A DNA stretch of 40,957 nucleotides, from IMG/VR virus record IMGVR_UViG_2778261455_000003, positions 1-40,957 of that record. One strand, written 5' to 3'. A program made the position numbers and the translations under genes. This DNA is from a virus (lineage: Duplodnaviria > Heunggongvirae > Uroviricota > Caudoviricetes). Below, piece after piece: positions 1 through 40,957 of the stretch. The notes under the pieces are model-generated. The model did no database searches and was not told the DNA's origin. It saw nothing but the letters and a program-made list of their open reading frames with translations. Each line of letters begins with the position of its first letter. Within the stretch, counting starts at the first letter, position 1.

Positions 1-1284
1 TTACTTCTTCGCCTCTGCAACCACTTTACTACCCACGCCGCGGTTATTGTATTCCCACATGCGGTTGTAGTTAGTGTCATTCAGATTGCGCTGTATTTCG
101 TCGTTATCATCTACGCTGCCGGTATTACCCGCAAACGGACGATTAGAGATCACCGCATCGGCCCACGGTTTAGCCGTGTTAAAACCTTCGTTGATGGCGC
201 TATCACGGATCACCACCTGACCGTTGGTATTGGCATCAACATCCAGCGAGCGGCCCAGTTGCGCCACACCATCACCGAAAGCATTGAAACGGCTGTTTAC
301 GGCGAGGAAACCGTAGTAAATGTTGGACAGCGTAGCCGGTGCAAACACATACGCTTCTTGCTGAGTACGTGAGTTCACCACGCGGAATTCGGTGTTATCG
401 AACACCACTGCGCCGCGACCAGAAACGATATCCACATCCCCTTCAATGTAGCTGTTGGTCACCAGCGTACGCGGCTGACGGTTGGTTTCCAGACGGTTCT
501 GCACACCGCTGTTGGTGACAAAGAAGGTGTTCTGACGACCGAGAATGTTAACGTTGTTAATCTGTACCTGGTCACCATCAGTACGCAGTGCCACCGCCGG
601 ATGGTTACCTGCATCTACGCTATCGCCCAGCGTGTTTTCGATGGTCAGATTTTGCAGTTGCAGGCCATTGTTTTGTGACCAGAAGACCGCAGAGCAGAGA
701 ACACCGATACTGTCGCTGCGTTTGCTCTGGCAGCTATCGTACATATACCACGCTGGTTTACCTGGCATATATTTGCCGCGCGGGTTGACGTCGTGACGCC
801 AGTCGGCAGGGCTCATGCCCCCATCAAGGGAAAGCCCAATCTTCACATCAATCGGTTTTTCACCTGTACCGTACAGAGTAATTCCACCCGGAGCAGCAGG
901 GACATACACCGTTCCCTGATACTCACCAGGCATCACGGCAATATACTGGCGCTTGTTAGTGCGCTTGATAATTGCCGCATCTACCGCCGCCTGAATCGTG
1001 GTATGCGTTACACCTTGAGTACCCGCCGGGCCGACAACAAAGTCAGGTTGCGCAGGCAGGGTAATCGGGGAAGGATTCCACGCTGCAGCACCTGGTGTCA
1101 GGGATGCAAAATAGTGTTGAGCATCGAAATTCTGCGCTTCTTTTGCCGACAGAATCGGGCGAGAAGAGGTACCAGGCGCGGTTTGATCAGAAGGACGTTG
1201 ATCGGGTGGTGTTGAGCTACAGGCGGTCAGCGTCACGCCAAAAGCCAATGCCAGCGCCAGACGGGAAACTGAAAATGTGTTCAC
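1..1284 (-). CDS. ybhC: YbhC-like outer-membrane lipoprotein (pectinesterase-fold acyl-CoA thioesterase family); host gene flanking attB-lambda
   Basis: Complete 427-aa ORF with a lipoprotein-type N-terminus (…LTACSS); recognised from memory as E. coli YbhC, which sits next to attB-lambda. Confidence 0.85.
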   Translation of the reverse strand: MNTFSVSRLALALAFGVTLTACSSTPPDQRPSDQTAPGTSSRPILSAKEAQNFDAQHYFASLTPGAAAWNPSPITLPAQPDFVVGPAGTQGVTHTTIQAAVDAAIIKRTNKRQYIAVMPGEYQGTVYVPAAPGGITLYGTGEKPIDVKIGLSLDGGMSPADWRHDVNPRGKYMPGKPAWYMYDSCQSKRSDSIGVLCSAVFWSQNNGLQLQNLTIENTLGDSVDAGNHPAVALRTDGDQVQINNVNILGRQNTFFVTNSGVQNRLETNRQPRTLVTNSYIEGDVDIVSGRGAVVFDNTEFRVVNSRTQQEAYVFAPATLSNIYYGFLAVNSRFNAFGDGVAQLGRSLDVDANTNGQVVIRDSAINEGFNTAKPWADAVISNRPFAGNTGSVDDNDEIQRNLNDTNYNRMWEYNNRGVGSKVVAEAKK

Positions 1285-3250: not shown

Positions 3251-3805
3251 GTTAACCTCCTGCGGCGGTTCTGGTAGCGGCATCCAGTGTGTGACGTTGC
3301 GGCTCTGCGTTTCGAAAAATTCATCACCATCACGGACGACATCAAAAAACTCACCGTCTCGATATTGCGCATAAAGAACGAATGCGCCATCACATAAAAT
3401 AATTACGTGCTGACCATCATCTGGCATTCGATCACTACAGCTTATCCAACCATCCGGAGTTACCGGAGAGTTGCCATTCACAAGGTCAGCTCGAACATAT
3501 AGTGTGTCATCATGGTGCTGATTGTGGCTGCACCACGTTAATTCGCTTAACTCGCCATCTTCTGGCCATACTCCAGCTGTTTGCAGCCAGATATGGGCTG
3601 GCGCATCTTGGCAAGGTGTATTAACTGGCAACTTGTAAGTTTGGCTTACAGGTTCTGCACTATCAGCTTCGCGCCGCTTCTGTAGCTCTGCTGCCATCGC
3701 TCTCACAACTTCAACTGGTGCCCTTGCAGCAAACTCTATGTTGGTGATCAGCTCATTAAGATATTGCTCGCCTGGATACTGTTTCTTATCGGTTATAGTG
3801 GTCAT
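3242..3805 (-). CDS. Hypothetical protein with DUF551-like C-terminal segment (…THWMPLPEPP)
   Basis: 187-aa ORF with RBS TAAGGTGA; C-terminal motif shared with the ORF at 20468..20683. Confidence 0.55.
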   Translation of the reverse strand: MTTITDKKQYPGEQYLNELITNIEFAARAPVEVVRAMAAELQKRREADSAEPVSQTYKLPVNTPCQDAPAHIWLQTAGVWPEDGELSELTWCSHNQHHDDTLYVRADLVNGNSPVTPDGWISCSDRMPDDGQHVIILCDGAFVLYAQYRDGEFFDVVRDGDEFFETQSRNVTHWMPLPEPPQEVNRG

Positions 3806-3807
3806 AG

Positions 3808-3999
3808 CTATTTCACCTTAATCTCAACATTTCGCAGCTTTAGCTCTACTGGCAGGTCTGACTTTCCGGTTAATGCTAATGCGAGATTTTCTGGAGTAAT
3901 GAGAGCCGTTATTGTTTTCCCCATCGACAGACGAATAATCATTCGTATCTCGCGATCGTCACATGCTCCCGGTCGAACAATTGAGATTTGTCCGTTCAT
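3808..3999 (-). CDS. Small hypothetical protein (63 aa)
   Basis: Internal ATG MNGQISIV… preceded by AGGAGAG; directly abuts the stop of the upstream gene. Confidence 0.4.
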   Translation of the reverse strand: MNGQISIVRPGACDDREIRMIIRLSMGKTITALITPENLALALTGKSDLPVELKLRNVEIKVK

Positions 4000-4000
4000 A

Positions 4001-4630
4001 TCACTCTCCTTTGATGCGAATGCCAGCGGCGCGCTCGGATTCACTTTGTTCCCAAAACCACTTGTGAAGCTCCATAAGCTTTTCGTCAATCGGTGCATAT
4101 TTGCGATTAAAGTAGGCCTGAGCATCTTTCTCAGATTCGTCCGGCAATTCGCCAGGGCCAAACAGTGTGTTATAAATCCATGCCAGTCCGCTCTTAGCGT
4201 CGCCAGTTGCCTGCCATTCGATAATCGCAGCCTGCATGACCAGAATGTTTTTCCCGATTAACAGGTCCAGTTCTTTGAACCGGTTGCGGATGTATGCATT
4301 CTCGCTTTGTAATTTTGCGTTGCGCTTCTCTGCGGCTTCCAGCTCAACACGCAGCTTCCCTACCGTTAGCGCAATTTCCTCGTTCTCCTGATCGCGGAGT
4401 TTGATGTATTGCTGGTTCCTTTCCCGTTCATCCAGTAGCGCCAAAGCAACCTTTGGATTAAAGGCAGCAATAAATTCAGCGTTGTTTTTCAGAACGTGTT
4501 GCGCAATCGCCTGACTACTTAGTCGGACCTCATAACCACGTGCGCCACGGTGTGGTTTATATGAGTCCCAGTCTCCCCACGTTGCTTTCTCTGCCGCCTC
4601 ACGCAGTGCCTGATAGTCAATCTTGCTCAT
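4001..4630 (-). CDS. Hypothetical early protein, possibly Ead/Ea22-like
   Basis: 209-aa ORF with RBS AGGGTGA; position and charged repetitive composition resemble Ea22-type proteins; family assignment is from recall only. Confidence 0.45.
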   Translation of the reverse strand: MSKIDYQALREAAEKATWGDWDSYKPHRGARGYEVRLSSQAIAQHVLKNNAEFIAAFNPKVALALLDERERNQQYIKLRDQENEEIALTVGKLRVELEAAEKRNAKLQSENAYIRNRFKELDLLIGKNILVMQAAIIEWQATGDAKSGLAWIYNTLFGPGELPDESEKDAQAYFNRKYAPIDEKLMELHKWFWEQSESERAAGIRIKGE

Positions 4631-4631
4631 G

Positions 4632-4931
4632 TCACATCACCCTGAATCCGTTGCATTTACGTAAGAAATCGCAGATGTAGCCCTTCATTTTTTCGTGCCA
4701 ATCTCGATCATTCCCATTGCACCAACCATCAGGTGGAGTCCAGTTTTCTATCAGAGCAGCCATTTTCTTTGCTTTCGCCGGAGTAGCTGTTGCGGTATCG
4801 CAGTAATGACGAGTGTCAACCAAAGCATCCATACCATCGATATCAAGTATGCAAAACCATGTGTGATTCGGCATTTCAACAGATGGTGTTTGTTGCCCAC
4901 GTCGACGTTTATCAATAAGACATACAGTCAC
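4632..4931 (-). CDS. Hypothetical protein (99 aa, GTG start)
   Basis: GTG start with strong RBS AAGGAGG 7 nt upstream; overlaps the stop of the upstream gene. Confidence 0.45.
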   Translation of the reverse strand: MTVCLIDKRRRGQQTPSVEMPNHTWFCILDIDGMDALVDTRHYCDTATATPAKAKKMAALIENWTPPDGWCNGNDRDWHEKMKGYICDFLRKCNGFRVM

Positions 4932-5470
4932 TGGTTGCCTCCTTTGCGAAGCTGGGCAGCAAAGTCAACTAACCACTCAGTCATTTCAACCTTCCCTACC
5001 AGGTCTGAACCAGGGTGCATACAGCAATCACTTTGCGCCGCTTTGAAATCCTTATACTCATATTCTTGGGCCACCAGATTTTTTGCAGCTTCTATAGCAG
5101 CATCCACCCCCTGCGCCCGAACTTCAGCCAGGAAAGCATCGGTGGCTGGGGTTTTGATTTCGTTAAGCGCATCACTGAATCCACCACGCTCCATACCTAG
5201 CTCTGCTTCGTAATCGGCATCGAATGCAGCGTCTTTGCAGAACTTCTTCATCCCCGCACTCTCCGCTGCCAGCGCCGCGCACTTGGCCTCAAGGTTATCA
5301 ATCGTGATTCCAGCAGAACGACACTCCCGCAACGCCGTTTCTAGTTTTGATTCAAGTTCACCGAACTTACGGACAAGATATTCAGCGTTTGTTTCGTTAA
5401 CCTTTAAATCTCGTGGGATGCATTTACCTTTCAGAAAACCATCCATCTCAATTAGTGACATTTGTTTCAT
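4928..5470 (-). CDS. Hypothetical protein (about 180 aa), possibly Ea22-like
   Basis: [15 protein letters not shown]… preceded by GGAG; its start overlaps (ATGA) the stop of a 54-aa upstream ORF. Confidence 0.45.
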
Positions 5471-9124: not shown

Positions 9125-9430
9125 TCAATCGTAATAAGCTGGAATTGATTTTCCGCGTTGCTTCTGGCGGCCTGAGCAAGTCACACCCATTTCACTGCGT
9201 GGCTTGCGGTAGTAAATACGGTTCTGTTTACGCTCGACTTCTTCTGCCTTCTTGCAGCGAAGGCTTCCGAGTGATGCTGCTTTATCTGCTCTGACGCAAC
9301 CAGAGAGCTTTAGCGCAATTTTTCGCGCCAGTCGCTGCTCTTGCATTGCCTGTTCACGTTGAGCCTGTCTGCGTGCTCTGCGGCGATTTCTGGCGTTATC
9401 GTCAGCCAGATATGTAATGACTACTGTCAT
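9125..9430 (-). CDS. N: N-type transcription antiterminator
   Basis: 101-aa ORF with RBS GGAGG; arginine-rich N-terminal motif NARNRRRARRQAQ; C-terminus …YYRKPRSEMGVTCSGRQKQRGKSIP resembles lambda N …WYSKPGERGITCSGRQKIKGKSIP. Confidence 0.75.
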   Translation of the reverse strand: MTVVITYLADDNARNRRRARRQAQREQAMQEQRLARKIALKLSGCVRADKAASLGSLRCKKAEEVERKQNRIYYRKPRSEMGVTCSGRQKQRGKSIPAYYD

Positions 9431-9740
9431 GTTGACCTCCGATGAAACAACTTTGGAATTGATAGTGATTGCAAAGTGGTTTCTGGCCCCTCGAACTGAG
9501 GGGCAGAAAGAGCATCTCGCCACCTAATAGGTCAATGCTCGGATCGAGAGATTTAATTAACCTCGGTTTTGAAGTTATGCATTCACATAAATCCTCCTGT
9601 TGCATGTGCAGCATTGGCTGTGTTTGGCGGCTGCATTTCGCCTATGGAATTGACTTTGGCGGTGACGCGCCGGGTGCTTATCTTCCGGTTGCCGTCGTGC
9701 AGCTGCACTTCACGTCACCCCAAAGCCAACTACTCTTTGG

Positions 9741-9782
9741 TTCCCGCATTTCGGCGGGACAATCCCATCAATGTTAAAGAGC
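9741..9782 (-). promoter_or_regulatory. nutL-like site (boxA GCTCTTTAACA, boxB hairpin TCCCGCCGAAATGCGGGA)
   Basis: Read on the minus strand between the candidate pL and N; the same boxA and boxB recur on the plus strand downstream of cro. Confidence 0.55.
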
Positions 9783-9828
9783 CTGCCAATCTGTTCCGTT
9801 TGGCTTCCAGCGTCCTGCTGATGGCTAA

Positions 9829-9916
9829 AGAATACTGTAGGTATTTTATTGTGTAAATACCCAAGGTATTTATTTTTGGTGAAATAATGATAAGCAAATG
9901 AATACAAAGGATATTT
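9829..9916 (-). promoter_or_regulatory. Candidate OL operators and pL promoter
   Basis: Three 17-bp inverted repeats of the AATAC-N5-GTATT type at 9830..9846, 9855..9871 and 9900..9916; minus-strand -35 TTTACA and -10 TATTCT with 17-bp spacing overlap them. Confidence 0.5.
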
Positions 9917-10001
9917 ATTTTTTCGGTGTCTGCTTGTTCAGTGCTTTTTATGCGGGATATGTGAAGTGGATCCCGATAGCTATTGCTGCCGGGATTATAG
10001 G

Positions 10002-10370
10002 TTAGTCAGCGAAGGTTAAGACGAGAATTACCTTAATGATGTCTGCTACAACAGACACGGCCATAGATAAACCAAAGACGATCCAAGCCACAGTGATGTC
10101 TTCACTACCATCGTATAGAGTTCCGTAATCACTGGTGTAAGGCGTAAATGTCGCGCCTTGATACAACAGGTATAAGCTTGATCCATAGAGGATAAATGCA
10201 GATATCCCTTGTATTGCTATGACCACTAGAATCATGAAACGAGCTGATCTATGCGCCCAAGCCTGGCTTATTTTTTCTGATAGAGATTTCGCAATAAAAG
10301 CATGCGCTAAGCCGTAAATTGTTGAGATTGCCAACATCCCAAAAAAGCTTGCTATAGCGGTTCCAACCAT
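10002..10370 (-). CDS. Small multi-pass membrane protein co-transcribed downstream of cI; unknown function
   Basis: ATG preceded by AAGGGGAG, 15 nt after the cI stop; about 122 aa with three long hydrophobic segments; occupies the rexAB position relative to cI and N. Confidence 0.55.
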   Translation of the reverse strand: MVGTAIASFFGMLAISTIYGLAHAFIAKSLSEKISQAWAHRSARFMILVVIAIQGISAFILYGSSLYLLYQGATFTPYTSDYGTLYDGSEDITVAWIVFGLSMAVSVVADIIKVILVLTFAD

Positions 10371-10387
10371 AAGCTCCCCTTGCGTGA

Positions 10388-11104
10388 TCAAACCAGCCTT
10401 AGTTTTGTCTCAATTGCAACGCCTATAATCTTGCAGTTTCCATTGATTGGCACGAGAGGCCATGCAGGATTAAGTCCCTTGAGGTATTTATTTCCGCCGT
10501 CGATTATCAGCTTCTTGAATGTTGCTTCGTTAGAGTCAGAAAGTTTTGCTATGACCAAGCTGCCGTTGATCGCCTCCCTTCCGGTATCGAAAAGAACGAA
10601 TGTCCCCTCTGGGATGCTTAACCCAACCGGTGCCGTCATTGAATCACCTTCCACTTTAAGCCAGAACGCATTACCTTGAATATGCGCGTCAGACTCAAGC
10701 CAAACATCTATGTCTTTAATGGTGTATGGTTCGCATGCTTCACACCACGAGCCAGCCTGGATACTGCTTAACACCGGATACCTCTTTCCTGCTCTGTATT
10801 CCCCTGCATACCTTACGTTGGCATCGCTCTTAAGGCTTTCTGCCTGTTCTGCAACCTTGGCAGCAATTGACTGGCTAAAATCAGCAATTGAGACTTGCAA
10901 CAAACGTGCAAAACCAGATGCGACCTCAACGTTTAGCGCGTTTCTGCCATTAAGATAATGCCCTACCGCTCCTTGGGTGATACCCAGTTCATCAGCGATT
11001 GAGTATTGGGTTATTCCCAATTCTTTCTTTTTTGACTCATACAAAGCCTTAAGCCGCTTAGCGTCTTCGAGCTGTTCTGTCGTCAGTGATTTTTTATTTT
11101 CCAT
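10388..11104 (-). CDS. cI: CI-type prophage repressor (HTH plus LexA-like S24 domain)
   Basis: 238-aa ORF; N-terminus …LTTEQLEDAKRLKALYESKKKELGITQ…, similar to lambda cI …[27 protein letters not shown]…; C-terminal GDSMTAP / FKKLI motifs. Confidence 0.9.
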   Translation of the reverse strand: MENKKSLTTEQLEDAKRLKALYESKKKELGITQYSIADELGITQGAVGHYLNGRNALNVEVASGFARLLQVSIADFSQSIAAKVAEQAESLKSDANVRYAGEYRAGKRYPVLSSIQAGSWCEACEPYTIKDIDVWLESDAHIQGNAFWLKVEGDSMTAPVGLSIPEGTFVLFDTGREAINGSLVIAKLSDSNEATFKKLIIDGGNKYLKGLNPAWPLVPINGNCKIIGVAIETKLRLV

Positions 11105-11210
11105 AGCTTAATTCTAATAGCTAAGGTACTTAAATTAAAAATACCCTGAGTATTGATTGCTTTGAATACCTGTAGTATTCTTTGTTCATGGTTAATAACG
11201 GAGAGTGCAT
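11105..11210. promoter_or_regulatory. OR region: candidate operators with divergent pRM and pR
   Basis: Inverted repeats AAATACCCTGAGTATT (11139..11154) and GAATACCTGTAGTATTC (11164..11180), same family as the OL repeats; plus-strand -35 TTGATT and -10 TATTCT (17-bp spacer) overlap them ahead of cro. Confidence 0.55.
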
Positions 11211-11405
11211 ATGATTCGAATGACACTTGCCGATTACGCCAAAATCCATGGACAGGCTAAAGCAGCCAGTGACTTTGGTGTAATCCAGTGCGCTATCAGC
11301 AAGGCCATTCTGGCAGGCCGTAACATCATGGTTACGGTAAAGCCTGATGGCAGTGTGATTGGAGAGGAAGTTCGTCCTTTCCCAAGCAACAAGAAAAACA
11401 AATAG
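11211..11405 (+). CDS. cro: Cro-type repressor
   Basis: ATG after [71 protein letters not shown] resembles lambda Cro. Confidence 0.85.
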
Positions 11406-11411
11406 TAACAC

Positions 11412-11455
11412 CGCTCTTTAACAGTCATGGTCCTCATTCCCGCCGAAATGCGGGA
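11412..11455 (+). promoter_or_regulatory. nutR-like site (boxA CGCTCTTTAACA, boxB hairpin TCCCGCCGAAATGCGGGA)
   Basis: Immediately downstream of the cro stop; boxB identical to the nutL copy. Confidence 0.55.
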
Positions 11456-11513
11456 ATACAACGCGCATAAGTTGATGCGCATAACTTCTTATTAGTTAAG
11501 GAAATACTTACAT

Positions 11514-21152: not shown

Positions 21153-21641
21153 ATGGCAGCACCAAAGGGCAACCGATTTTGGGAGGCCCGCAGTAGTCAT
21201 GGGCGAAACCCGAAATTCGAATCGCCTGAGGCGCTGTGGGCTGCTTGTTGTGAATACTTCGAGTGGGTGGAAGCTAACCCGCTATGGGAGATGAAGGCGT
21301 TCTCGTATCAGGGTGAAGTGATACAAGAGCCTATCGCCAAGATGCGAGCGATGACCATTACCGGCCTCACTCTGTTCATTGATGTGACGCTTGAAACATG
21401 GCGCACATATCGCCTGCGAGAAGATTTATCTGAAGTCGTTACGCGAGCAGAACAGGTCATCTACGACCAGAAATTCTCTGGCGCAGCCGCTGACCTTCTC
21501 AACGCTAATATCATCGCCCGTGATTTGGGCCTCAAAGAGCAGTCGCAAGTTGAAGACGTGACACCTGATAAGGGAGATCGCGATAAGCGGCGCTCTCGTA
21601 TCAAGGAGCTATTCAACCGTGGAACTGGACGCGATTCTTGA
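21153..21641 (+). CDS. Terminase small subunit, P22 gp3 type
   Basis: 162-aa [47 protein letters not shown]… recognised as P22 gene 3 product; contains the pac-like sequence. Confidence 0.8.
21421..21446 (+). other. pac-like packaging initiation site inside the small terminase gene
   Basis: GAAGATTTATCTGAAGTCGTTACGCG, about 268 nt into the gene; resembles the P22 pac site as recalled (GAAGACTTATCTGAAGTCGTTACGCG). Confidence 0.45.
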
Positions 21642-35194: not shown

Positions 35195-35455
35195 TTAGCT
35201 GCTGTCTTTTTTATATAGCTCTTTGAGCGTATCAAAGACAATTTTCTTAACCATATCGGATTGTTGTTCTGCCATACGCTCTGCATCGTCAATGTAAACT
35301 GATGCAGAGCTTTGTTTATCCAGTGATTCTTCAATCGCTGCAATTATCTCTGAGTTCAGAGACCTGTTATTCATCTTCGCGCGCTGCTTAATTTTCGCGT
35401 GGAGTTCATGCGGAAGTCTCAAGTGAAACTGCGCCTCGTCGTATTTGCTGTACAT
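35195..35455 (-). CDS. mnt: Mnt-type ribbon-helix-helix repressor
   Basis: 86-aa ORF; …FHLRLPHELHAKIKQRAKMNNRSLNSEIIAAIEESL…DDAERMAEQQSDMVKKIVFDTLKELYKK resembles P22 Mnt. Confidence 0.75.
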   Translation of the reverse strand: MYSKYDEAQFHLRLPHELHAKIKQRAKMNNRSLNSEIIAAIEESLDKQSSASVYIDDAERMAEQQSDMVKKIVFDTLKELYKKDSS

Positions 35456-35576
35456 CCTTGATGCCTCACCAATTGGGTGGAATGGCATCGTAACTTACTG
35501 GATAAATACTCAATAGTACCATTTCGGTATGCAATCACATCATGGTTGCATCATATCATTCGTCTGGAGCAATGAA

Positions 35577-37958
35577 ATGTCAGATATCACCGCAAATGTT
35601 GTGGTAAGCATGCCTTCGCAACTCTTCACTATGGCTCGTTCTTTTAAAGCGGTTGCCAATGGCAAAATTTATATCGGAAAAATTGACACTGACCCGGTAA
35701 ATCCTGAAAACCAGATTCAGGTTTATGTGGAGAACGAAGACGGCTCTCACGTTCCTGTTTCGCAACCAATCATCATTAACGCTGCTGGATATCCGGTATA
35801 TAACGGACAGATTGCAAAATTCGTTACCGTGCAAGGCCATTCTATGGCTGTGTACGATGCGTACGGTGCGCAGCAGTTTTATTTTCCAAATGTGCTGAAG
35901 TATGACCCTGATCAATTCCGTATATACTTTGACAGAGTTATGCATGATATGGCAAAGCCTATAACATATTTTGGGGCCGTACCTGGTGAAGACTGCTCTG
36001 AAGCATTGGAGTCGGCTTTGCATACTGGATTACCATTCTTTTTCCCGGACGGTGAATGGGTTGTAAACAAGAAGATAATATATACAGGAAGTTTCCAGAT
36101 GTTTGGGGTTGGGAATGCGGTTATTAAATCAGACAAGATGTTTGAATTTACTGACGCCAATAATTCAGTTATTGCCGATCTCACCTTCCAGACAATCAGT
36201 GTTCCGTACGTTATTAAGCGTGACACTACTGCATGGGATGCAACAGTATCAGATGTTAAGCAGTCACGAGATGGGTATCAACCAACATCATTGGATACTG
36301 ATATATGGGATGCGCTTCCGCAAATTATTAAAGACCAAGCAATAAATAGAACGATTGAATGTGGAGCAAAATTTTTCTCATCTACATCTTCAGGAGTAGA
36401 CAATGTCAACATTCTGCGAGTTTCCGGGCTTGGTGTTGCATTTGAAATTTATGGTTCTAAAAATTCAGTTGCTAGTGATTGCAGCATAACCGGAAACAGT
36501 AGAGATGCTATAACATTTATAAACGATACTGTCTTCAACGGAATTTCATTGCCGCGAGGCACAGGAAATAGGGCGGTAAATAACAACGTAACCTACGCTT
36601 CGCAGTGCGGTATATCATGGTGGGGGCAGGATGAATTTTTATGTGATGGCAATAATACACAATATTGTGGCGAATCAGGAATAAAAATTTATCAATACGA
36701 TACCAACCATCCAGTATCAATTGTCAGCAAAGGAAGTCGCATAGTTAACAACTATTCAGCATACAATTACTACGATGGCATTGATGCTCAGGTATGGTAT
36801 CCGCCAGCAACAGATCCGGGTGTGGTAGCTAGAAACGTTATAAAAAACAATATATCAATAGGTAGCAGACATACAGGAATAACTTCTAACGGCGGTCAGG
36901 AATTAGTTTCAGGGAACCATTGCCGAAGTACTGGTGGGTCTGGTATTAGAATTGTCTCAAACAGAAGTGTTATTGAAACGAATATTGCAACTGATTGTGC
37001 CAATGCATCATCACAGCACTCATTCCAGATTTTTGGTATGAGCATCCAAGGTGATGGTATTATTTCTATAGGTAACAGGGTTAATAATTCATCATCTCCT
37101 GCGAGCACCTATGATTATTTGCATACTGGAATAAATGGAAACGATCCAGCATCCGGGGATCCCGGGCTTGATTTTGGTAATACCTGTAGCGCAGGACCGG
37201 ATGTGATGTTTATTTCTAATAATATCACATCGTCAATGTCTGAGTTTCTTGTTGGAGCTTCCTCTAAAACAAATACATTTAACGCTTCGTTAATAGCCAG
37301 AAAAAACGGCTATGGCGTTGATCTTTGCGGTGGTAACGGGGAGGGTTCGGTAAACATACGTGGAGATGCTACATTTGGGGCGAGTATTAATTTTCAGCCT
37401 GTTTCCGAAGATCCTTCAACAACCACCCCTAAAGGTGGTCTGAGATACAGCTTTTCAGCAAAAAAACTTATCATCTCAACTGAGAGAGAAGCAAAAGTCG
37501 AAATTGGCGAGACTGCCGGAGTATATCCAACAGCGGACAATAGCATCGGACTTGGCCTGCCATCAAATCGATGGACAGCAGTTTATGCTGCAAATGGAAC
37601 AATTGTCACATCAGATGGGAGACTAAAATGTAATGAAAGAAGTTTGAGTGAAGCAGAATTAGCAACAGCTAACGCATTAAAGAATATGATTAAAGCATAT
37701 AAGTTTACCGAATCCGTTGAAGGTAAAGGTGAAAATGCAAGGATTCATTTTGGCGTTATCGCTCAAGAGGTTATTAAGGCATTTAACGCAAATGGTCTTG
37801 ATGCTTTTAAATATGGAATAGTCTGCTATGACGAGTGGGATTCTCAATCAGATCTAAAAGATTCCTCAGGAAATATAATCACTCCAGAAATAAAAGGCGG
37901 TAATAGATACGGCATTAGATATGATGAATTATTGTGCTTCATCATTGCTGCACTATAA
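35577..37958 (+). CDS. Tailspike protein: P22-type head-binding N-terminus, divergent central domain, C-terminal auto-chaperone-like segment
   Basis: N-terminus [47 protein letters not shown]… matches the P22 tailspike head-binding domain; the rest is unrelated to P22, Ser/Asn/Gly-rich, and ends with a segment (…[23 protein letters not shown]…) resembling intramolecular chaperone domains. Confidence 0.85.
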
Positions 37959-37984
37959 AAAAAGGGGCATTAGCCCCTTTTTTT
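37957..37984. terminator. Bidirectional intrinsic terminator between convergent tailspike and acyltransferase genes
   Basis: AAAAAAAGGGGC-ATTA-GCCCCTTTTTTT: a perfect GC stem flanked by an A-run and a T-run. Confidence 0.6.
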
Positions 37985-39899
37985 ATTCGAATATTTCCTT
38001 TCTGTATTTATCTACTATGTAAGTAGATCCTGCCTCTGTAAGATGCCCCCAATCAACAGCAGTTATACCTTTTGGTCCTTCTGATGTTCTTGTAAGACAA
38101 CCACCATCTCCACACATAGCCGAATATGGTGAAACGTAATCCACTCCAAGCGTTGGAATATTCTTTTTGAGAAAATCATCCCATTCCTTAATCTGAGGCT
38201 TTAATCCATCCTTCATGTAGCGTGGAGGTTCATTATGATTATTTGTATAGTACAAGACTATTTGTTTTATAAGGCTTTCATCCCACTCAGGCACAGGACC
38301 AACAACAATGATTTTTGATTCAGGAGAAGCAAACTTAATCTTTTTAATTGTTTCATTAAGAGATAAGATGGCCTGATTCTTATCAAATATAGCATTCTGA
38401 CCTTCAACCATCCATGATATTATAATTTTCTTCGGCTTATACATTTCAACGAAATTTAATCTCTCATTATTTGCATCTGTGAGAGTTTTTAGTGTATCTG
38501 TCTTTCTGTTGTCAAAATAGAAAGGAGGCCCATTCCCATCGGTCATCTGGCTAATGAAAACATCTTTGTAATACTTGTCGCTAACATTTTTCAATCCGCT
38601 ATATAAAGCGGCAGCGTATGAATCACCCCATATAAATATTTGATTATCGCTCTTAGCTACGCAACCACTACTTACTGCAACCTCTGGTGTTACAGAGTGG
38701 CATTTATTGCTTCTCATTAAATTTGGGTAATCGAAAAAATCATAAACGTTAATTATTGAGCTATATTCCTTGGCTATTTCGTTAATCTTTCTATCTTGTA
38801 TTCCATTATGCTTATATACGTACAGTCCAGCCTGGCCAACTATGAAAAGAATGATGGCGGAAACAGCAGCATTATAACCCCTATGCTTTCCAAACCTTAC
38901 TTTACGCTCAACTAAGTAAAACGATAGGAACGCTAAAATCATTGAGGCGAAAATTATAAAAATACCGTTCAGTAAGTCTATATCGCTTGCCGTTTTCAAC
39001 TTGTAGAAAACTATTAAAGGCCAGTGCCACAGGTAAAGCGGGTAGCTAATTAATCCAATGAATACAAATAACTTATTAGACAGCAGACGCCCAACACAAC
39101 TATCATTGCCATAACACACTATCATAGCAGTACCAGCAACAGGAACCATTGCAATGTATCCCGGGAAATTCATTTTGCTGTTTATAAAAAACATTGAAAA
39201 AACAATCAAAATAAAACCAATTACCGGCACGATAATATTAAGCGTGGATTTTCTATTACCCCCATCTCTGAATGTTAGAGATATGGCAGCCCCTGTCATT
39301 AATTCCCATAATCTCGTTAAAGGAGAGTAATAGCTTACACTTTGGTTATGTATTGTTTCATATATACAATATAGCAGGCTTGCTATAAATAATAACATTA
39401 TGTAAATTCTTGCAGAATTCTTTCTTTTGACAATAAGAAGTATTAATGCAGGCCATATTATATAGAATTGCTCCTCAACACCCAAAGACCATAGGTGTAG
39501 CAATGGTTTCAATTCAGACGCTGTATCAAAGTATCCTGACTCAAGAATATATCCTATATTAGCAACGAAGAATGCGCCTGTAAAAACGTTCTTTCCTAGC
39601 GAGGCGTATTCACTCTGAAGAAGGAAGAACCAACCATAAATTAATGAAGCTGCCAGAACAGCAATCAGAGATGGGAATATTCTTAGCGCTCTTCTTTTAT
39701 AAAATTCAGTGTAACTGAATTTATTAGTAAGTGCTTCACTATAAATAATGTTTGTTATAAGGTATCCAGATATAACAAAGAATATATCAACACCAACGAA
39801 TCCACCTGGTAGAGTGCTTGGGAAAATGTGATAAACAATTACTGACAATACAGCAATTGCTCGTAGCCCATCGATATCAGGTCTGTATTTTATAGACAT
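37983..39899 (-). CDS. Membrane acyltransferase (AT3 domain plus C-terminal SGNH-like domain); probable O-antigen acetyltransferase
   Basis: 638-aa ORF with about ten hydrophobic segments in the N-terminal two-thirds and a soluble C-terminal domain; markedly AT-rich compared with neighbouring phage genes. Confidence 0.8.
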   Translation of the reverse strand: MSIKYRPDIDGLRAIAVLSVIVYHIFPSTLPGGFVGVDIFFVISGYLITNIIYSEALTNKFSYTEFYKRRALRIFPSLIAVLAASLIYGWFFLLQSEYASLGKNVFTGAFFVANIGYILESGYFDTASELKPLLHLWSLGVEEQFYIIWPALILLIVKRKNSARIYIMLLFIASLLYCIYETIHNQSVSYYSPLTRLWELMTGAAISLTFRDGGNRKSTLNIIVPVIGFILIVFSMFFINSKMNFPGYIAMVPVAGTAMIVCYGNDSCVGRLLSNKLFVFIGLISYPLYLWHWPLIVFYKLKTASDIDLLNGIFIIFASMILAFLSFYLVERKVRFGKHRGYNAAVSAIILFIVGQAGLYVYKHNGIQDRKINEIAKEYSSIINVYDFFDYPNLMRSNKCHSVTPEVAVSSGCVAKSDNQIFIWGDSYAAALYSGLKNVSDKYYKDVFISQMTDGNGPPFYFDNRKTDTLKTLTDANNERLNFVEMYKPKKIIISWMVEGQNAIFDKNQAILSLNETIKKIKFASPESKIIVVGPVPEWDESLIKQIVLYYTNNHNEPPRYMKDGLKPQIKEWDDFLKKNIPTLGVDYVSPYSAMCGDGGCLTRTSEGPKGITAVDWGHLTEAGSTYIVDKYRKEIFE

Positions 39900-40480: not shown

Positions 40481-40957
40481 TTAACTAAACATCGCAGTAA
40501 TCGAGGCGCTTGCCAGAGAGTGGAAATGAACGTTAAACCCGACCATCGCGCCGCTGGCACCTTCATCGACATCAATACGTTCTATATCCAGCGCGTGAAC
40601 GGTAAAAATGTAGCGATGAGTTTCGCCTTTCGGCGGTGCTGCGCCATCGTACCCGGTTTTACCAAAGTCGGTACGCGTCTGCAAAACGCCGTCTGGCATT
40701 GCTACCAGACCAGAGCCAAACCCTTGCGGTAATACGCGGGTATCAGCGGGTAAGTTAACAACTACCCAGTGCCACCAGCCGGAGCCGGTTGGCGCATCCG
40801 GGTCGTAGCAGGTGACAACAAAACTTTTCGTTCCCGCAGGAACATCATCCCACGCCAGATGCGGTGAAATATTATCGCCATCGTAACCCATGCCGTTAAA
40901 GACATGACGATGCGGCAATTTATCGCCATCGCGCAGATCGTTACTGATGAGTTTCAT
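40481..40957 (-). CDS. ybhB: YbhB-like PEBP-family protein; host gene flanking attB-lambda
   Basis: Complete 158-aa ORF MKLISNDLRDGDKLPHRHVFNGMGYDGDNISPHLAWDDVPAGTKSF…, recognised as E. coli YbhB. Confidence 0.85.
   Translation of the reverse strand: MKLISNDLRDGDKLPHRHVFNGMGYDGDNISPHLAWDDVPAGTKSFVVTCYDPDAPTGSGWWHWVVVNLPADTRVLPQGFGSGLVAMPDGVLQTRTDFGKTGYDGAAPPKGETHRYIFTVHALDIERIDVDEGASGAMVGFNVHFHSLASASITAMFS

What the first reader, a model, noticed from the sequence alone, without database searches (positions are those of the whole stretch)
9829..9916. Operator family suggesting a distinct immunity specificity
OL and OR (11139..11181) share 17-bp inverted repeats of the form (A)AATAC-N5-GTATT(T), different from the lambda, 434 and P22 operators as I recall them. 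The pL and pR candidates use the same -10 (TATTCT), each overlapped by an operator. The cI is lambda-like but diverged, consistent with a heteroimmune region.
Basis: seen in the sequence. Interest (0 to 1): 0.45.

Follow-up and report, generated by a model that had tools for sequence, protein, structure and literature searches.

The report
Known HK620-type phage immunity operators
The repeated AATAC-N5-GTATT palindromes are real and are most likely the repressor binding sites of a prophage's lysis/lysogeny switch, but this switch is the already sequenced and annotated HK620/mEpX2 immunity type, so the finding is correct and ordinary.

Summary
AATAC-N5-GTATT (up to 1 mismatch) occurs five times in 41 kb, against 1.06 expected. 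All five sites lie in two clusters that flank a cI gene (10388-11104, minus strand) and overlap pL and pR, which share the -10 hexamer TATTCT.

The interpretation of a non-lambda, non-434, non-P22 immunity is supported, but it is not new.
- **Identity:** the region is 98.6-99.3% identical to phages HK620, mEpX2 and HK140. cI and Cro are identical to those of mEpX2.
- **Prior annotation:** the HK620 GenBank record (2001) already marks OL1, OL2, OR1, OR2, OR3, pL and pR at these positions.
- **Immunity group:** mEpX2 is reported as a separate immunity group from lambda.

My own evidence agrees. In 25 diverged cI homologues (43-76% identity) that keep the helix QGAVGHY, all 114 motif matches lie in OR and OL clusters. 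The Cro helix (Q-C-A-I-S-K) predicts A2, A5 and C6 of the half-site, as observed.

No repressor binding experiment was found, so binding remains inferred.

The parts
9830..9846 (-). OL1, 17-bp operator GAATACTGTAGGTATTT. It overlaps the -10 hexamer and spacer of pL.
   Evidence: Perfect core match. PWM rank 3. Annotated as OL1 in HK620 AF335538 (locus coordinate + 8103 = window coordinate, from the alignment).
9855..9871 (-). OL2, 17-bp perfect palindrome AAATACCCAAGGTATTT. It overlaps the -35 hexamer of pL. Its centre is 25 bp from the OL1 centre.
   Evidence: PWM rank 1. Annotated as OL2 in HK620.
9900..9916 (-). Probable OL3, GAATACAAAGGATATTT (one core mismatch). Its centre is 45 bp from the OL2 centre.
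   Evidence: PWM rank 5 of about 40,900 positions. Relatives L027 (perfect site) and L008 (one mismatch) have a third site at the same 45-bp spacing. The HK620 record instead calls 9890-9920 'tIMM' and places OL3 at 9877-9893, which scores -26 (rank 26,760).
9829..9857 (-). pL: TTTACA, 17-nt spacer, TATTCT.
   Evidence: Promoter scan. HK620 annotates pL at the equivalent position.
10388..11104 (-). cI repressor, 238 aa, with an HTH domain and an S24 self-cleaving domain.
   Evidence: Pfam HTH_3 and Peptidase_S24. 43% identical to lambda cI over the full length; the QAG cleavage site and the GDSM and FKK motifs align with lambda. Identical to mEpX2 cI and one residue different from HK620 cI.
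11104..11139 (-). Candidate pRM. The -10 hexamer TAGAAT (11116-11111) lies 6 nt before the cI ATG, which predicts a leaderless cI mRNA. The weak -35 hexamer TTTAAT (11139-11134) abuts OR2.
   Evidence: Read from the sequence. The TAnnAT pattern is conserved at this position in 19 diverged relatives. Inferred only; not annotated in HK620.
11115..11131 (+). OR3, weak site TAATAGCTAAGGTACTT (two core mismatches). It overlaps the candidate pRM.
   Evidence: PWM rank 8. Annotated as OR3 in HK620. Relatives have a stronger site (TAATACC...) at the same offset from the cI ATG.
11139..11155 (+). OR2, AAATACCCTGAGTATTG. It overlaps the -35 hexamer of pR. Its centre is 43 bp upstream of the cI ATG.
   Evidence: PWM rank 2. 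Annotated as OR2 in HK620.
11164..11180 (+). OR1, perfect palindrome GAATACCTGTAGTATTC. It overlaps the -10 hexamer and spacer of pR.
   Evidence: PWM rank 4. Annotated as OR1 in HK620.
11153..11181 (+). pR: TTGATT, 17-nt spacer, TATTCT.
   Evidence: Read from the sequence. HK620 annotates pR at the equivalent position.
11211..11405 (+). cro, 64 aa, lambda Cro family, recognition helix Q-C-A-I-S-K.
   Evidence: Pfam Cro PF09048, E = 3.6e-26. 63% identical to lambda Cro. Identical to the Cro of HK620, mEpX2 and HK140.

Best explanation
The dyads are the OL and OR operators of a lambda-type lysis/lysogeny switch with the HK620/mEpX2 immunity specificity. The switch sits in a P22-like prophage.

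Proposed mechanism, by analogy with lambda:
- Dimers of cI (HTH domain plus S24 self-cleaving domain) bind the 17-bp sites, whose consensus is N-AATACY-N3-RGTATT-N.
- Binding at OL1/OL2 and OR1/OR2 occludes the -10 and -35 hexamers of pL and pR, which silences the lytic genes.
- cI at OR2, centred about -43 from the cI start, probably activates a weak, leaderless pRM.
- The weak OR3 (and probably a distal OL3) allows negative autoregulation of cI. OR3 is also the likely first target of Cro, which reads the same sites.
- RecA-stimulated self-cleavage of cI at the conserved Ala-Gly bond induces the prophage.

Shown here: the sites, their enrichment, their positions on the promoters, their conservation across relatives, and the homology of cI and Cro. 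Inferred, not shown: binding itself, the order of affinities, cooperativity, and pRM activation.
For: - **Enrichment:** 5 sites against 1.06 expected, all in two clusters on pL and pR.
- **Identity to known phages:** the region is 98.6-99.3% identical to HK620, mEpX2 and HK140. The operators are base-for-base identical to HK620's annotated OL1, OL2, OR1, OR2 and OR3.
- **Proteins:** cI is a full-length lambda cI homologue and Cro is a lambda Cro homologue.
- **Phylogenetic footprint:** in 25 loci from other genera whose cI is only 43-76% identical but keeps the helix Q-G-A-V-G-H-Y, there are 114 sites with up to 1 mismatch in 138 kb, about 30 times the window's shuffle rate. Every one lies in an OR cluster (offsets about 14, 38 and 62 from the cI ATG) or in a single downstream OL cluster. 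The spacers and the central N5 vary freely.
- **Negative control:** three loci whose repressor has an unrelated N-terminal domain (L044, L046, L054) have no such site upstream of the repressor gene. Across all 55 loci that lack this helix, matches are about eight times rarer (29 in 295 kb).
- **Cro code:** the published Cro recognition code pairs Gln H1 with A+2, Ala H3 with A+5 and Lys H6 with C+6 (PMC6649833). For helix Q-C-A-I-S-K it predicts exactly the observed half-site: A2 in 173/176, A5 in 176/176 and C6 in 153/176 half-sites.
- **Specificity change:** lambda Cro Ser H2 contacts base pairs 4 and 5. Here H2 is Cys, the aligned cI residue Ser45 is Gly, and base pair 4 differs from lambda (T instead of C).
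- **Reported immunity group:** mEpX2 is listed as a separate immunity group from lambda and can be combined with lambda in multiple lysogens (PMC3442831).
Against: - I found no footprint, EMSA or operator-mutant data for this repressor in the searchable literature. The primary HK620 paper could not be read.
- The HK620 operator annotation is itself computational as far as I can tell.
- The weight matrix is built from the same four sites it ranks highest, so only ranks 5 and 8 are independent.
- OL3 is uncertain. It lies 45 bp from OL2, unlike lambda (20 bp by my recollection), and the HK620 record calls that palindrome a terminator.
Confidence: 0.93

Rival explanations
1. The palindrome at 9900-9916 is not an operator. 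It would be part of the transcription terminator of the cI-hkaS transcript ('tIMM', as in the HK620 record), and OL would have only two functional sites or an OL3 elsewhere.
For: - The HK620 GenBank record annotates 9890-9920 (window coordinates) as tIMM and puts OL3 at 9877-9893.
- An AAAAATAAAT... element at this position is conserved even in relatives that have a separate third site 21 or 30 bp from OL2 and whose 45-bp-position sequence has decayed away from the motif (L007, L012, L014, L004). Something other than repressor binding may therefore be conserved there.
Against: - No terminator-like hairpin is found there on either strand.
- The RNA fold of the cI-sense strand shows only a weak A/T pairing there.
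- The site is the fifth best match to the operator matrix in 41 kb.
- L027 has a perfect operator and L008 a one-mismatch operator at the same 45-bp spacing.
- The annotated OL3 has no resemblance to the motif (rank 26,760).
Confidence: 0.3
2. The dyads are chance products of AT-rich promoter sequence, or are bound by some other protein (for example the Mnt-like repressor at 35195-35488 or a host factor), and not by cI or Cro.
For: The region is AT-rich. The motif overlaps promoter hexamers, which are themselves conserved. No binding experiment is available.
Against: - 0 of 100 shuffles reach the observed count.
- The sites track the cI recognition helix across genera and are absent upstream of the repressor gene in the three loci checked whose N-terminal domain is unrelated.
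- The half-site agrees with the recognition code for this Cro helix.
- The layout copies the lambda OR and OL architecture site for site.
Confidence: 0.03
3. The specificity is not distinct from every classical lambdoid immunity: it could be the same as phage 21, whose N protein resembles the N here.
For: The HK620 record describes N as similar to the N proteins of H-19B and phage 21. I could not retrieve the phage 21 immunity sequence (AJ237660, named in PMC3349717) to compare.
Against: - The HK620 record likens cI to the repressors of 434 and L, not to that of phage 21.
- No record named phage 21 appears among the 16 phage records that cover this region.
- No source name in the cI protein cluster refers to phage 21.
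- In lambdoid phages, N and cI modules recombine independently (established knowledge).
Confidence: 0.05

Closest known systems
Immunity region of coliphage HK620 (GenBank AF335538; Clark et al. 2001), also found in mEpX2, HK140, HK630, HF4s and several Stx2c phages
   Same: 98.6-99.3% nucleotide identity across N-leader, OL, hkaS, cI, OR and cro. cI differs by 0-1 residue and Cro is identical. OL1, OL2, OR1, OR2, OR3, pL and pR coincide with the HK620 annotation.
   Different: - Single-base differences at 9879, 9894 and 11135, all outside the motif sites.
- A segment of about 204 bp in the N leader, shared with HK140 but absent from HK620 and mEpX2.
- The rest of the prophage is a different mosaic: Sf6/IME10-like virion genes and a lambda-type integrase.
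- My third OL site (9900-9916) differs from the annotated OL3.
Bacteriophage lambda cI/Cro/OR/OL genetic switch
   Same: - Divergent cI and cro genes, with three 17-bp odd-symmetric operators in OR at 24-25 bp centre spacing.
- OL on pL upstream of N.
- A repressor with an N-terminal arm, an HTH domain and an S24 domain; a Cro of the same fold family.
- OR2 near -43 of a probably leaderless pRM.
- Half-site positions 2, 5, 6 and 7 are shared (A, A, C, C).
   Different: - The half-site is NAATACY, against TATCACC in lambda (positions 1, 3 and 4 differ).
- The recognition helices differ: cI has QGAVGHY against QSGVGAL, and Cro has QCAISK against QSAINK.
- No lambda-type operator occurs in the region.
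- The probable OL3 is 45 bp from OL2, against 20 bp in lambda by my recollection.
- A 122-aa membrane ORF (hkaS) follows cI in place of rexA/rexB.
Cro recognition 'evolutionary code' (Hall, Lefevre and Cordes 2005; summarised in PMC6649833)
   Same: Gln H1, Ala H3 and Lys H6 of this Cro predict A+2, A+5 and C+6, which are all observed.
   Different: The code says nothing about positions 3 and 4, which are the ones that distinguish this specificity from lambda. I did not find this phage's Cro/OR pair mentioned in the texts I could read.

Membership tests
Lambdoid cI/Cro bistable switch with tripartite OR and OL | Divergently transcribed repressor and cro genes separated by a short region that holds three dyad-symmetric sites overlapping pR and pRM | tested here: met
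   cI is at 10388-11104 (minus strand) and cro at 11211-11405 (plus strand). OR3, OR2 and OR1 are at 11115-11180 with 24-25 bp spacing. pR is overlapped by OR1 and OR2.
Lambdoid cI/Cro bistable switch with tripartite OR and OL | A second cluster of the same sites overlapping pL, upstream of an N-type antiterminator and nutL | tested here: met
   OL1 and OL2 lie on TTTACA-17-TATTCT. nutL and N lie downstream by the HK620 annotation and the Pfam N_peptide hint. The third OL site is probable only.
Lambdoid cI/Cro bistable switch with tripartite OR and OL | Repressor made of an HTH DNA-binding domain plus a LexA-like S24 self-cleavage domain, with an Ala-Gly site and a Ser/Lys dyad | tested here: met
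   Pfam HTH_3 (E = 8e-10) and Peptidase_S24 (E = 5e-24). QAG, GDSMTAP and TFKKLI align with lambda A111-G112, S149 and K192 (residue roles are from established knowledge of lambda cI).
Lambdoid cI/Cro bistable switch with tripartite OR and OL | cI and Cro physically bind the sites, with opposite affinity orders and cooperative cI binding | not testable with these tools
   No binding data were found. Support comes only from co-conservation of helix and site and the recognition code.
HK620/mEpX2 immunity group | Repressor and Cro identical or nearly identical to the type phages | tested here: met
   cI has 0 differences from mEpX2, 1 from HK620 and 1 from HK140. Cro has 0 differences from all three.
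HK620/mEpX2 immunity group | Identical operator sequences | tested here: met
   All six motif sites are identical in HK620 and mEpX2. The differences at 9879, 9894 and 11135 lie between sites.
HK620/mEpX2 immunity group | Reciprocal superinfection immunity with the type phages, and none with lambda | not testable with these tools
   From the literature only: mEpX2 is reported as a separate immunity group from lambda, HK022, phi80 and others, and lambda/mEpX2 lysogens were built (PMC3442831).
Lambda, 434 or P22 immunity specificity | Operators matching the lambda (TATCACCG-N-CGGTGATA), 434 (ACAA-N6-TTGT) or P22 (ATTTAAG-N4-CTTAAAT) consensus at OL and OR | tested here: not met
   The only matches in the window are at 21509, 38252 and 37277. 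They are far from the immunity region and occur at chance frequency. The consensus sequences themselves are from my own knowledge.
Phage 21 immunity specificity | cI, cro and operators the same as phage 21 | not tested
   The phage 21 immunity sequence (AJ237660) is not in the collections I could search. There are only indirect hints against it.

The most novel reading that the evidence does not exclude
The OL of this immunity type may differ in architecture from the annotated one and from lambda. The third operator would be the palindrome 45 bp from OL2 (9900-9916, currently labelled as a terminator in HK620), not a lambda-like site about 20 bp away. Its distance from OL2 varies (21, 30 or 45 bp) among relatives that share the same specificity, which would imply flexible geometry for any OL3-OR3 loop.

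In addition, the AATAC-N5-GTATT specificity class spans Enterobacterales to Microbulbifer. In Microbulbifer it is paired with a Cro that is not of the lambda type.
Probability: 0.55. Interest if true: 0.2.

Novelty: already known. Interest (0 to 1): 0.1.

Why it matters
It matters little beyond correct annotation. The window carries a common immunity module: it is present in 146 of 5,426 complete E. coli genomes, and the exact cI protein is seen on at least 1,000 contigs. That module determines which lambdoid phages, including some Stx2c phages, can superinfect or coexist with this prophage.

The comparative set assembled here gives a clean natural example of repressor-helix and operator co-conservation. 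It also suggests a correction to the OL3 and tIMM annotation in the HK620 reference record. Neither point changes the understanding of lambdoid switches.

Tried and rejected
- **Primary paper:** the HK620 paper (PMID 11518522) is not held. I therefore could not see whether its operators rest on experiment.
- **Literature on binding:** five full-text searches for binding or immunity data on HK620 cI or imm21, plus a name search for mEpX2, returned no footprinting. The mEpX2 search led to the only immunity-group statement (PMC3442831).
- **Terminator at OL3:** I tested whether 9890-9920 is a terminator, as annotated in HK620. The consensus scan finds none, and the RNA fold shows only weak A/T pairing there.
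- **Annotated OL3:** 9877-9893 scored as a non-site.
- **Covariation in a sister subfamily:** I looked for clean helix-operator covariation in the cI subfamily with helix TKGAVSHW. Its sites are hybrids (TATAC-N5-GTATT), so the result is suggestive but not a clean switch.
- **Other classical operators:** searches for lambda, 434 and P22 operator consensus found nothing relevant.
- **Phage 21:** the comparison was not possible with the available collections.
- **Protein cluster names:** these gave only generic labels.

Full report
**1. The observation**

The pattern AATAC-N5-GTATT with up to one mismatch occurs five times in the 40,957-base window, at 9831, 9856, 9901 (one mismatch), 11140 and 11165. 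Dinucleotide-preserving shuffles give a mean of 1.06 matches, and none of 100 shuffles reaches five.

As 17-mers the sites are:

| Site | Coordinates | Sequence |
|---|---|---|
| OL1 | 9830-9846 | GAATACTGTAGGTATTT |
| OL2 | 9855-9871 | AAATACCCAAGGTATTT |
| third OL site | 9900-9916 | GAATACAAAGGATATTT |
| OR2 | 11139-11155 | AAATACCCTGAGTATTG |
| OR1 | 11164-11180 | GAATACCTGTAGTATTC |

A half-site matrix built from the four perfect sites ranks 9900-9916 fifth in the whole window.

pL is TTTACA-17-TATTCT on the minus strand, 9857-9829. pR is TTGATT-17-TATTCT at 11153-11181. At each promoter one site covers the -10 hexamer and spacer, and the next overlaps the -35 hexamer.

**2. What surrounds it**

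Between the two clusters lie two genes on the minus strand:
- cI (10388-11104, 238 aa). It has Pfam HTH_3 plus Peptidase_S24 and is 43% identical to lambda cI over its full length, with the QAG cleavage site and the Ser and Lys motifs aligned.
- A 122-aa membrane ORF (10002-10370).

To the right is cro (11211-11405). It matches Pfam Cro with E = 3.6e-26 and is 63% identical to lambda Cro. After it come nutR, cII and the O and P-like replication genes. To the left of OL are nutL and an N gene.

The window as a whole is a P22-like prophage, with Sf6/IME10-like virion genes. It has a lambda-type integrase and is flanked by a pectinesterase-like gene and a PEBP-family gene. From my own knowledge, that matches the ybhC/ybhB neighbourhood of the lambda attachment site.

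**3. It is the HK620 immunity region**

Window 9400-11500 is 98.9% identical to HK620, 99.3% to mEpX2 and 98.6% to HK140. It recurs in HK630, HF4s and several Stx2c phages.

The HK620 GenBank record AF335538 annotates pL, OL1, OL2, OL3, tIMM, hkaS, cI, OR3, OR2, pR, OR1, cro, nutL and nutR.

cI and Cro here are identical to those of mEpX2. cI differs from HK620 cI by one residue. The only base differences in OL and OR (9879, 9894, 11135) fall between sites.

The module is common. It is present in 146 of 5,426 complete E. coli genomes, and the exact cI sequence is seen on at least 1,000 contigs.

**4. Independent evidence that these are the operators**

*Comparative scan.* A genome-collection scan with cI returned 80 loci from other genera.
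- In the 25 loci whose repressor keeps the recognition helix Q-G-A-V-G-H-Y (43-76% identity; Lelliottia, Tatumella, Serratia, Pantoea, Proteus, Yersinia, Microbulbifer and others), there are 114 sites with up to one mismatch in 138 kb.
- Every one lies either in an OR cluster, at offsets of about 14, 38 and 62 from the cI start codon, or in one downstream OL cluster.
- In an alignment of 20 OR regions, the half-sites and the promoter hexamers are conserved, while the spacers and the central five bases vary freely.
- Three loci whose repressor has an unrelated N-terminal domain have no such site upstream of the repressor gene. Across all 55 loci that lack the helix, matches are about eight times rarer (29 in 295 kb). 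Most of those 29 belong to a sister subfamily with helix TKGAVSHW and hybrid TATAC-N5-GTATT sites.

*Recognition code.* The half-site consensus from 88 distinct sites is N-A-A-T-A-C-Y. The published Cro recognition code pairs Gln H1 with A+2, Ala H3 with A+5 and Lys H6 with C+6 (PMC6649833). For this Cro helix, Q-C-A-I-S-K, it predicts exactly these bases in the lambda-like 17-bp register.

*Where the specificity differs from lambda.* The positions that differ from lambda include base pairs 3 and 4. This fits the change of Cro H2 from Ser to Cys, since Ser H2 contacts base pairs 4 and 5 in lambda. It also fits the change of the aligned cI residue Ser45 to Gly. The contact role of Ser45 is from established knowledge of the lambda repressor-operator structure.

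**5. How it most likely works**

By homology and geometry:
- cI dimers at OL1/OL2 and OR1/OR2 block pL and pR.
- OR2 is centred about 43 bp upstream of the cI ATG. It abuts a weak -35 hexamer (TTTAAT) of a candidate pRM. The -10 hexamer of that promoter, TAGAAT, ends six bases before the ATG, so cI mRNA would be leaderless, as in lambda.
- The TAnnAT hexamer is conserved in the relatives.
- The weak OR3 overlaps this promoter and would give negative autoregulation and Cro control.
- Induction would follow RecA-stimulated self-cleavage of cI.

Binding, affinity order, cooperativity and activation are all inferred. I found no footprint or EMSA for this repressor, and I could not read the HK620 paper.

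**6. Immunity specificity**

No lambda, 434 or P22 operator consensus occurs in the region. [quoted passage not shown] That study also built lambda/HK022/mEpX2 and lambda/mEpX1/mEpX2 triple lysogens. Its mEpX2-specific cI primers match this window exactly.

Identity with phage 21 immunity could not be excluded directly. Nothing points to it except a related N protein.

**7. One refinement: OL3**

The HK620 record places OL3 at window 9877-9893 (TGGTGAAATAATGATAA). That sequence has no resemblance to the motif (matrix rank 26,760). The record labels 9890-9920 as the terminator tIMM.

No terminator-like hairpin is detected there. Relatives L027 (a perfect site) and L008 have a third OL site at the same 45-bp distance from OL2. 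Others have it at 21 or 30 bp.

An AAAAATAAAT element at this position is conserved even where the dyad has decayed. A second function there cannot be excluded, and I put the operator reading at roughly two in three.

**8. Verdict**

Interest is low. The only additions are the comparative footprint, the fit to the Cro code, the leaderless pRM candidate, and the probable mis-annotation of OL3 and tIMM in the reference record.

Noticed in passing
window 1-1284, 1419-2489, 40481-40957: The window is a whole prophage. A pectinesterase-like gene and a PEBP-family gene flank it, and the integrase has the lambda Int arm-binding domain. From my own knowledge this looks like the ybhC/ybhB neighbourhood of the lambda attachment site, here occupied by a P22-like phage.
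   Followed up: partly
window 35195-35488 (minus strand): A 97-aa Arc/Mnt-type repressor ORF lies between the last injection gene and the tailspike (35529-37958), with no antirepressor-sized ORF beside it. It looks like a remnant of the immI region, as described for HK620 in PMC2629481.
   Followed up: partly
window about 9446-9649: A segment of about 204 bp lies in the N leader, between the N start (9430) and nutL (9742-9783). It is present here and in HK140 but absent from HK620 and mEpX2. It contains a GC-rich hairpin (GGCCCCTCGAACTGAGGGGC, about 9485-9504) and only short ORFs. Its function is unknown.
   Followed up: no
window 9877-9920; L001 1774-1817: The OL3 feature in the HK620 GenBank record has no operator motif. 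Its tIMM feature coincides with the best third OL site and shows no terminator-like hairpin.
   Followed up: yes
window 11104-11139 (minus strand): Candidate pRM. TAGAAT ends 6 nt before the cI ATG, which predicts a leaderless cI mRNA as in lambda. The TAnnAT pattern is conserved in 19 diverged relatives. It is not annotated in HK620.
   Followed up: partly
window 10002-10370 (minus strand): A 122-aa predicted membrane protein (the hkaS homologue) lies immediately downstream of cI, in the position of lambda rexA/rexB. It has no significant Pfam family. It may be a prophage-expressed exclusion or accessory function.
   Followed up: no
L020, L021, L023, L024, L029, L031 (OR near 2390-2460; OL further downstream, 3277-5184): A sister cI subfamily with helix T-K-G-A-V-S-H-W (Lys instead of Gln at helix position 1) has hybrid sites, TATAC-N5-GTATT, in its OR and OL clusters. 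This is a possible natural specificity shift at operator position 2.
   Followed up: partly
L061 and L063 (Microbulbifer): These loci keep the cI helix QGAVGHY and the AATAC-N5-GTATT operators. The gene in the cro position encodes a different, non-lambda-type HTH protein (…GITQGMVSAW…).
   Followed up: no
window 9741-9759 and 11437-11456: nutL and nutR carry the same boxB hairpin (TTCCCGC-CGAAAT-GCGGGAA) next to boxA (CGCTCTTTAACA). The N protein (9125-9430, minus strand) has an Arg-rich N-terminus, NARNRRRARRQ.
   Followed up: no
window 37983-39899 (minus strand): A 638-aa acyltransferase-3 plus SGNH fusion protein lies next to the tailspike. It is probably an O-antigen acetylase used for lysogenic conversion.
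   Followed up: no
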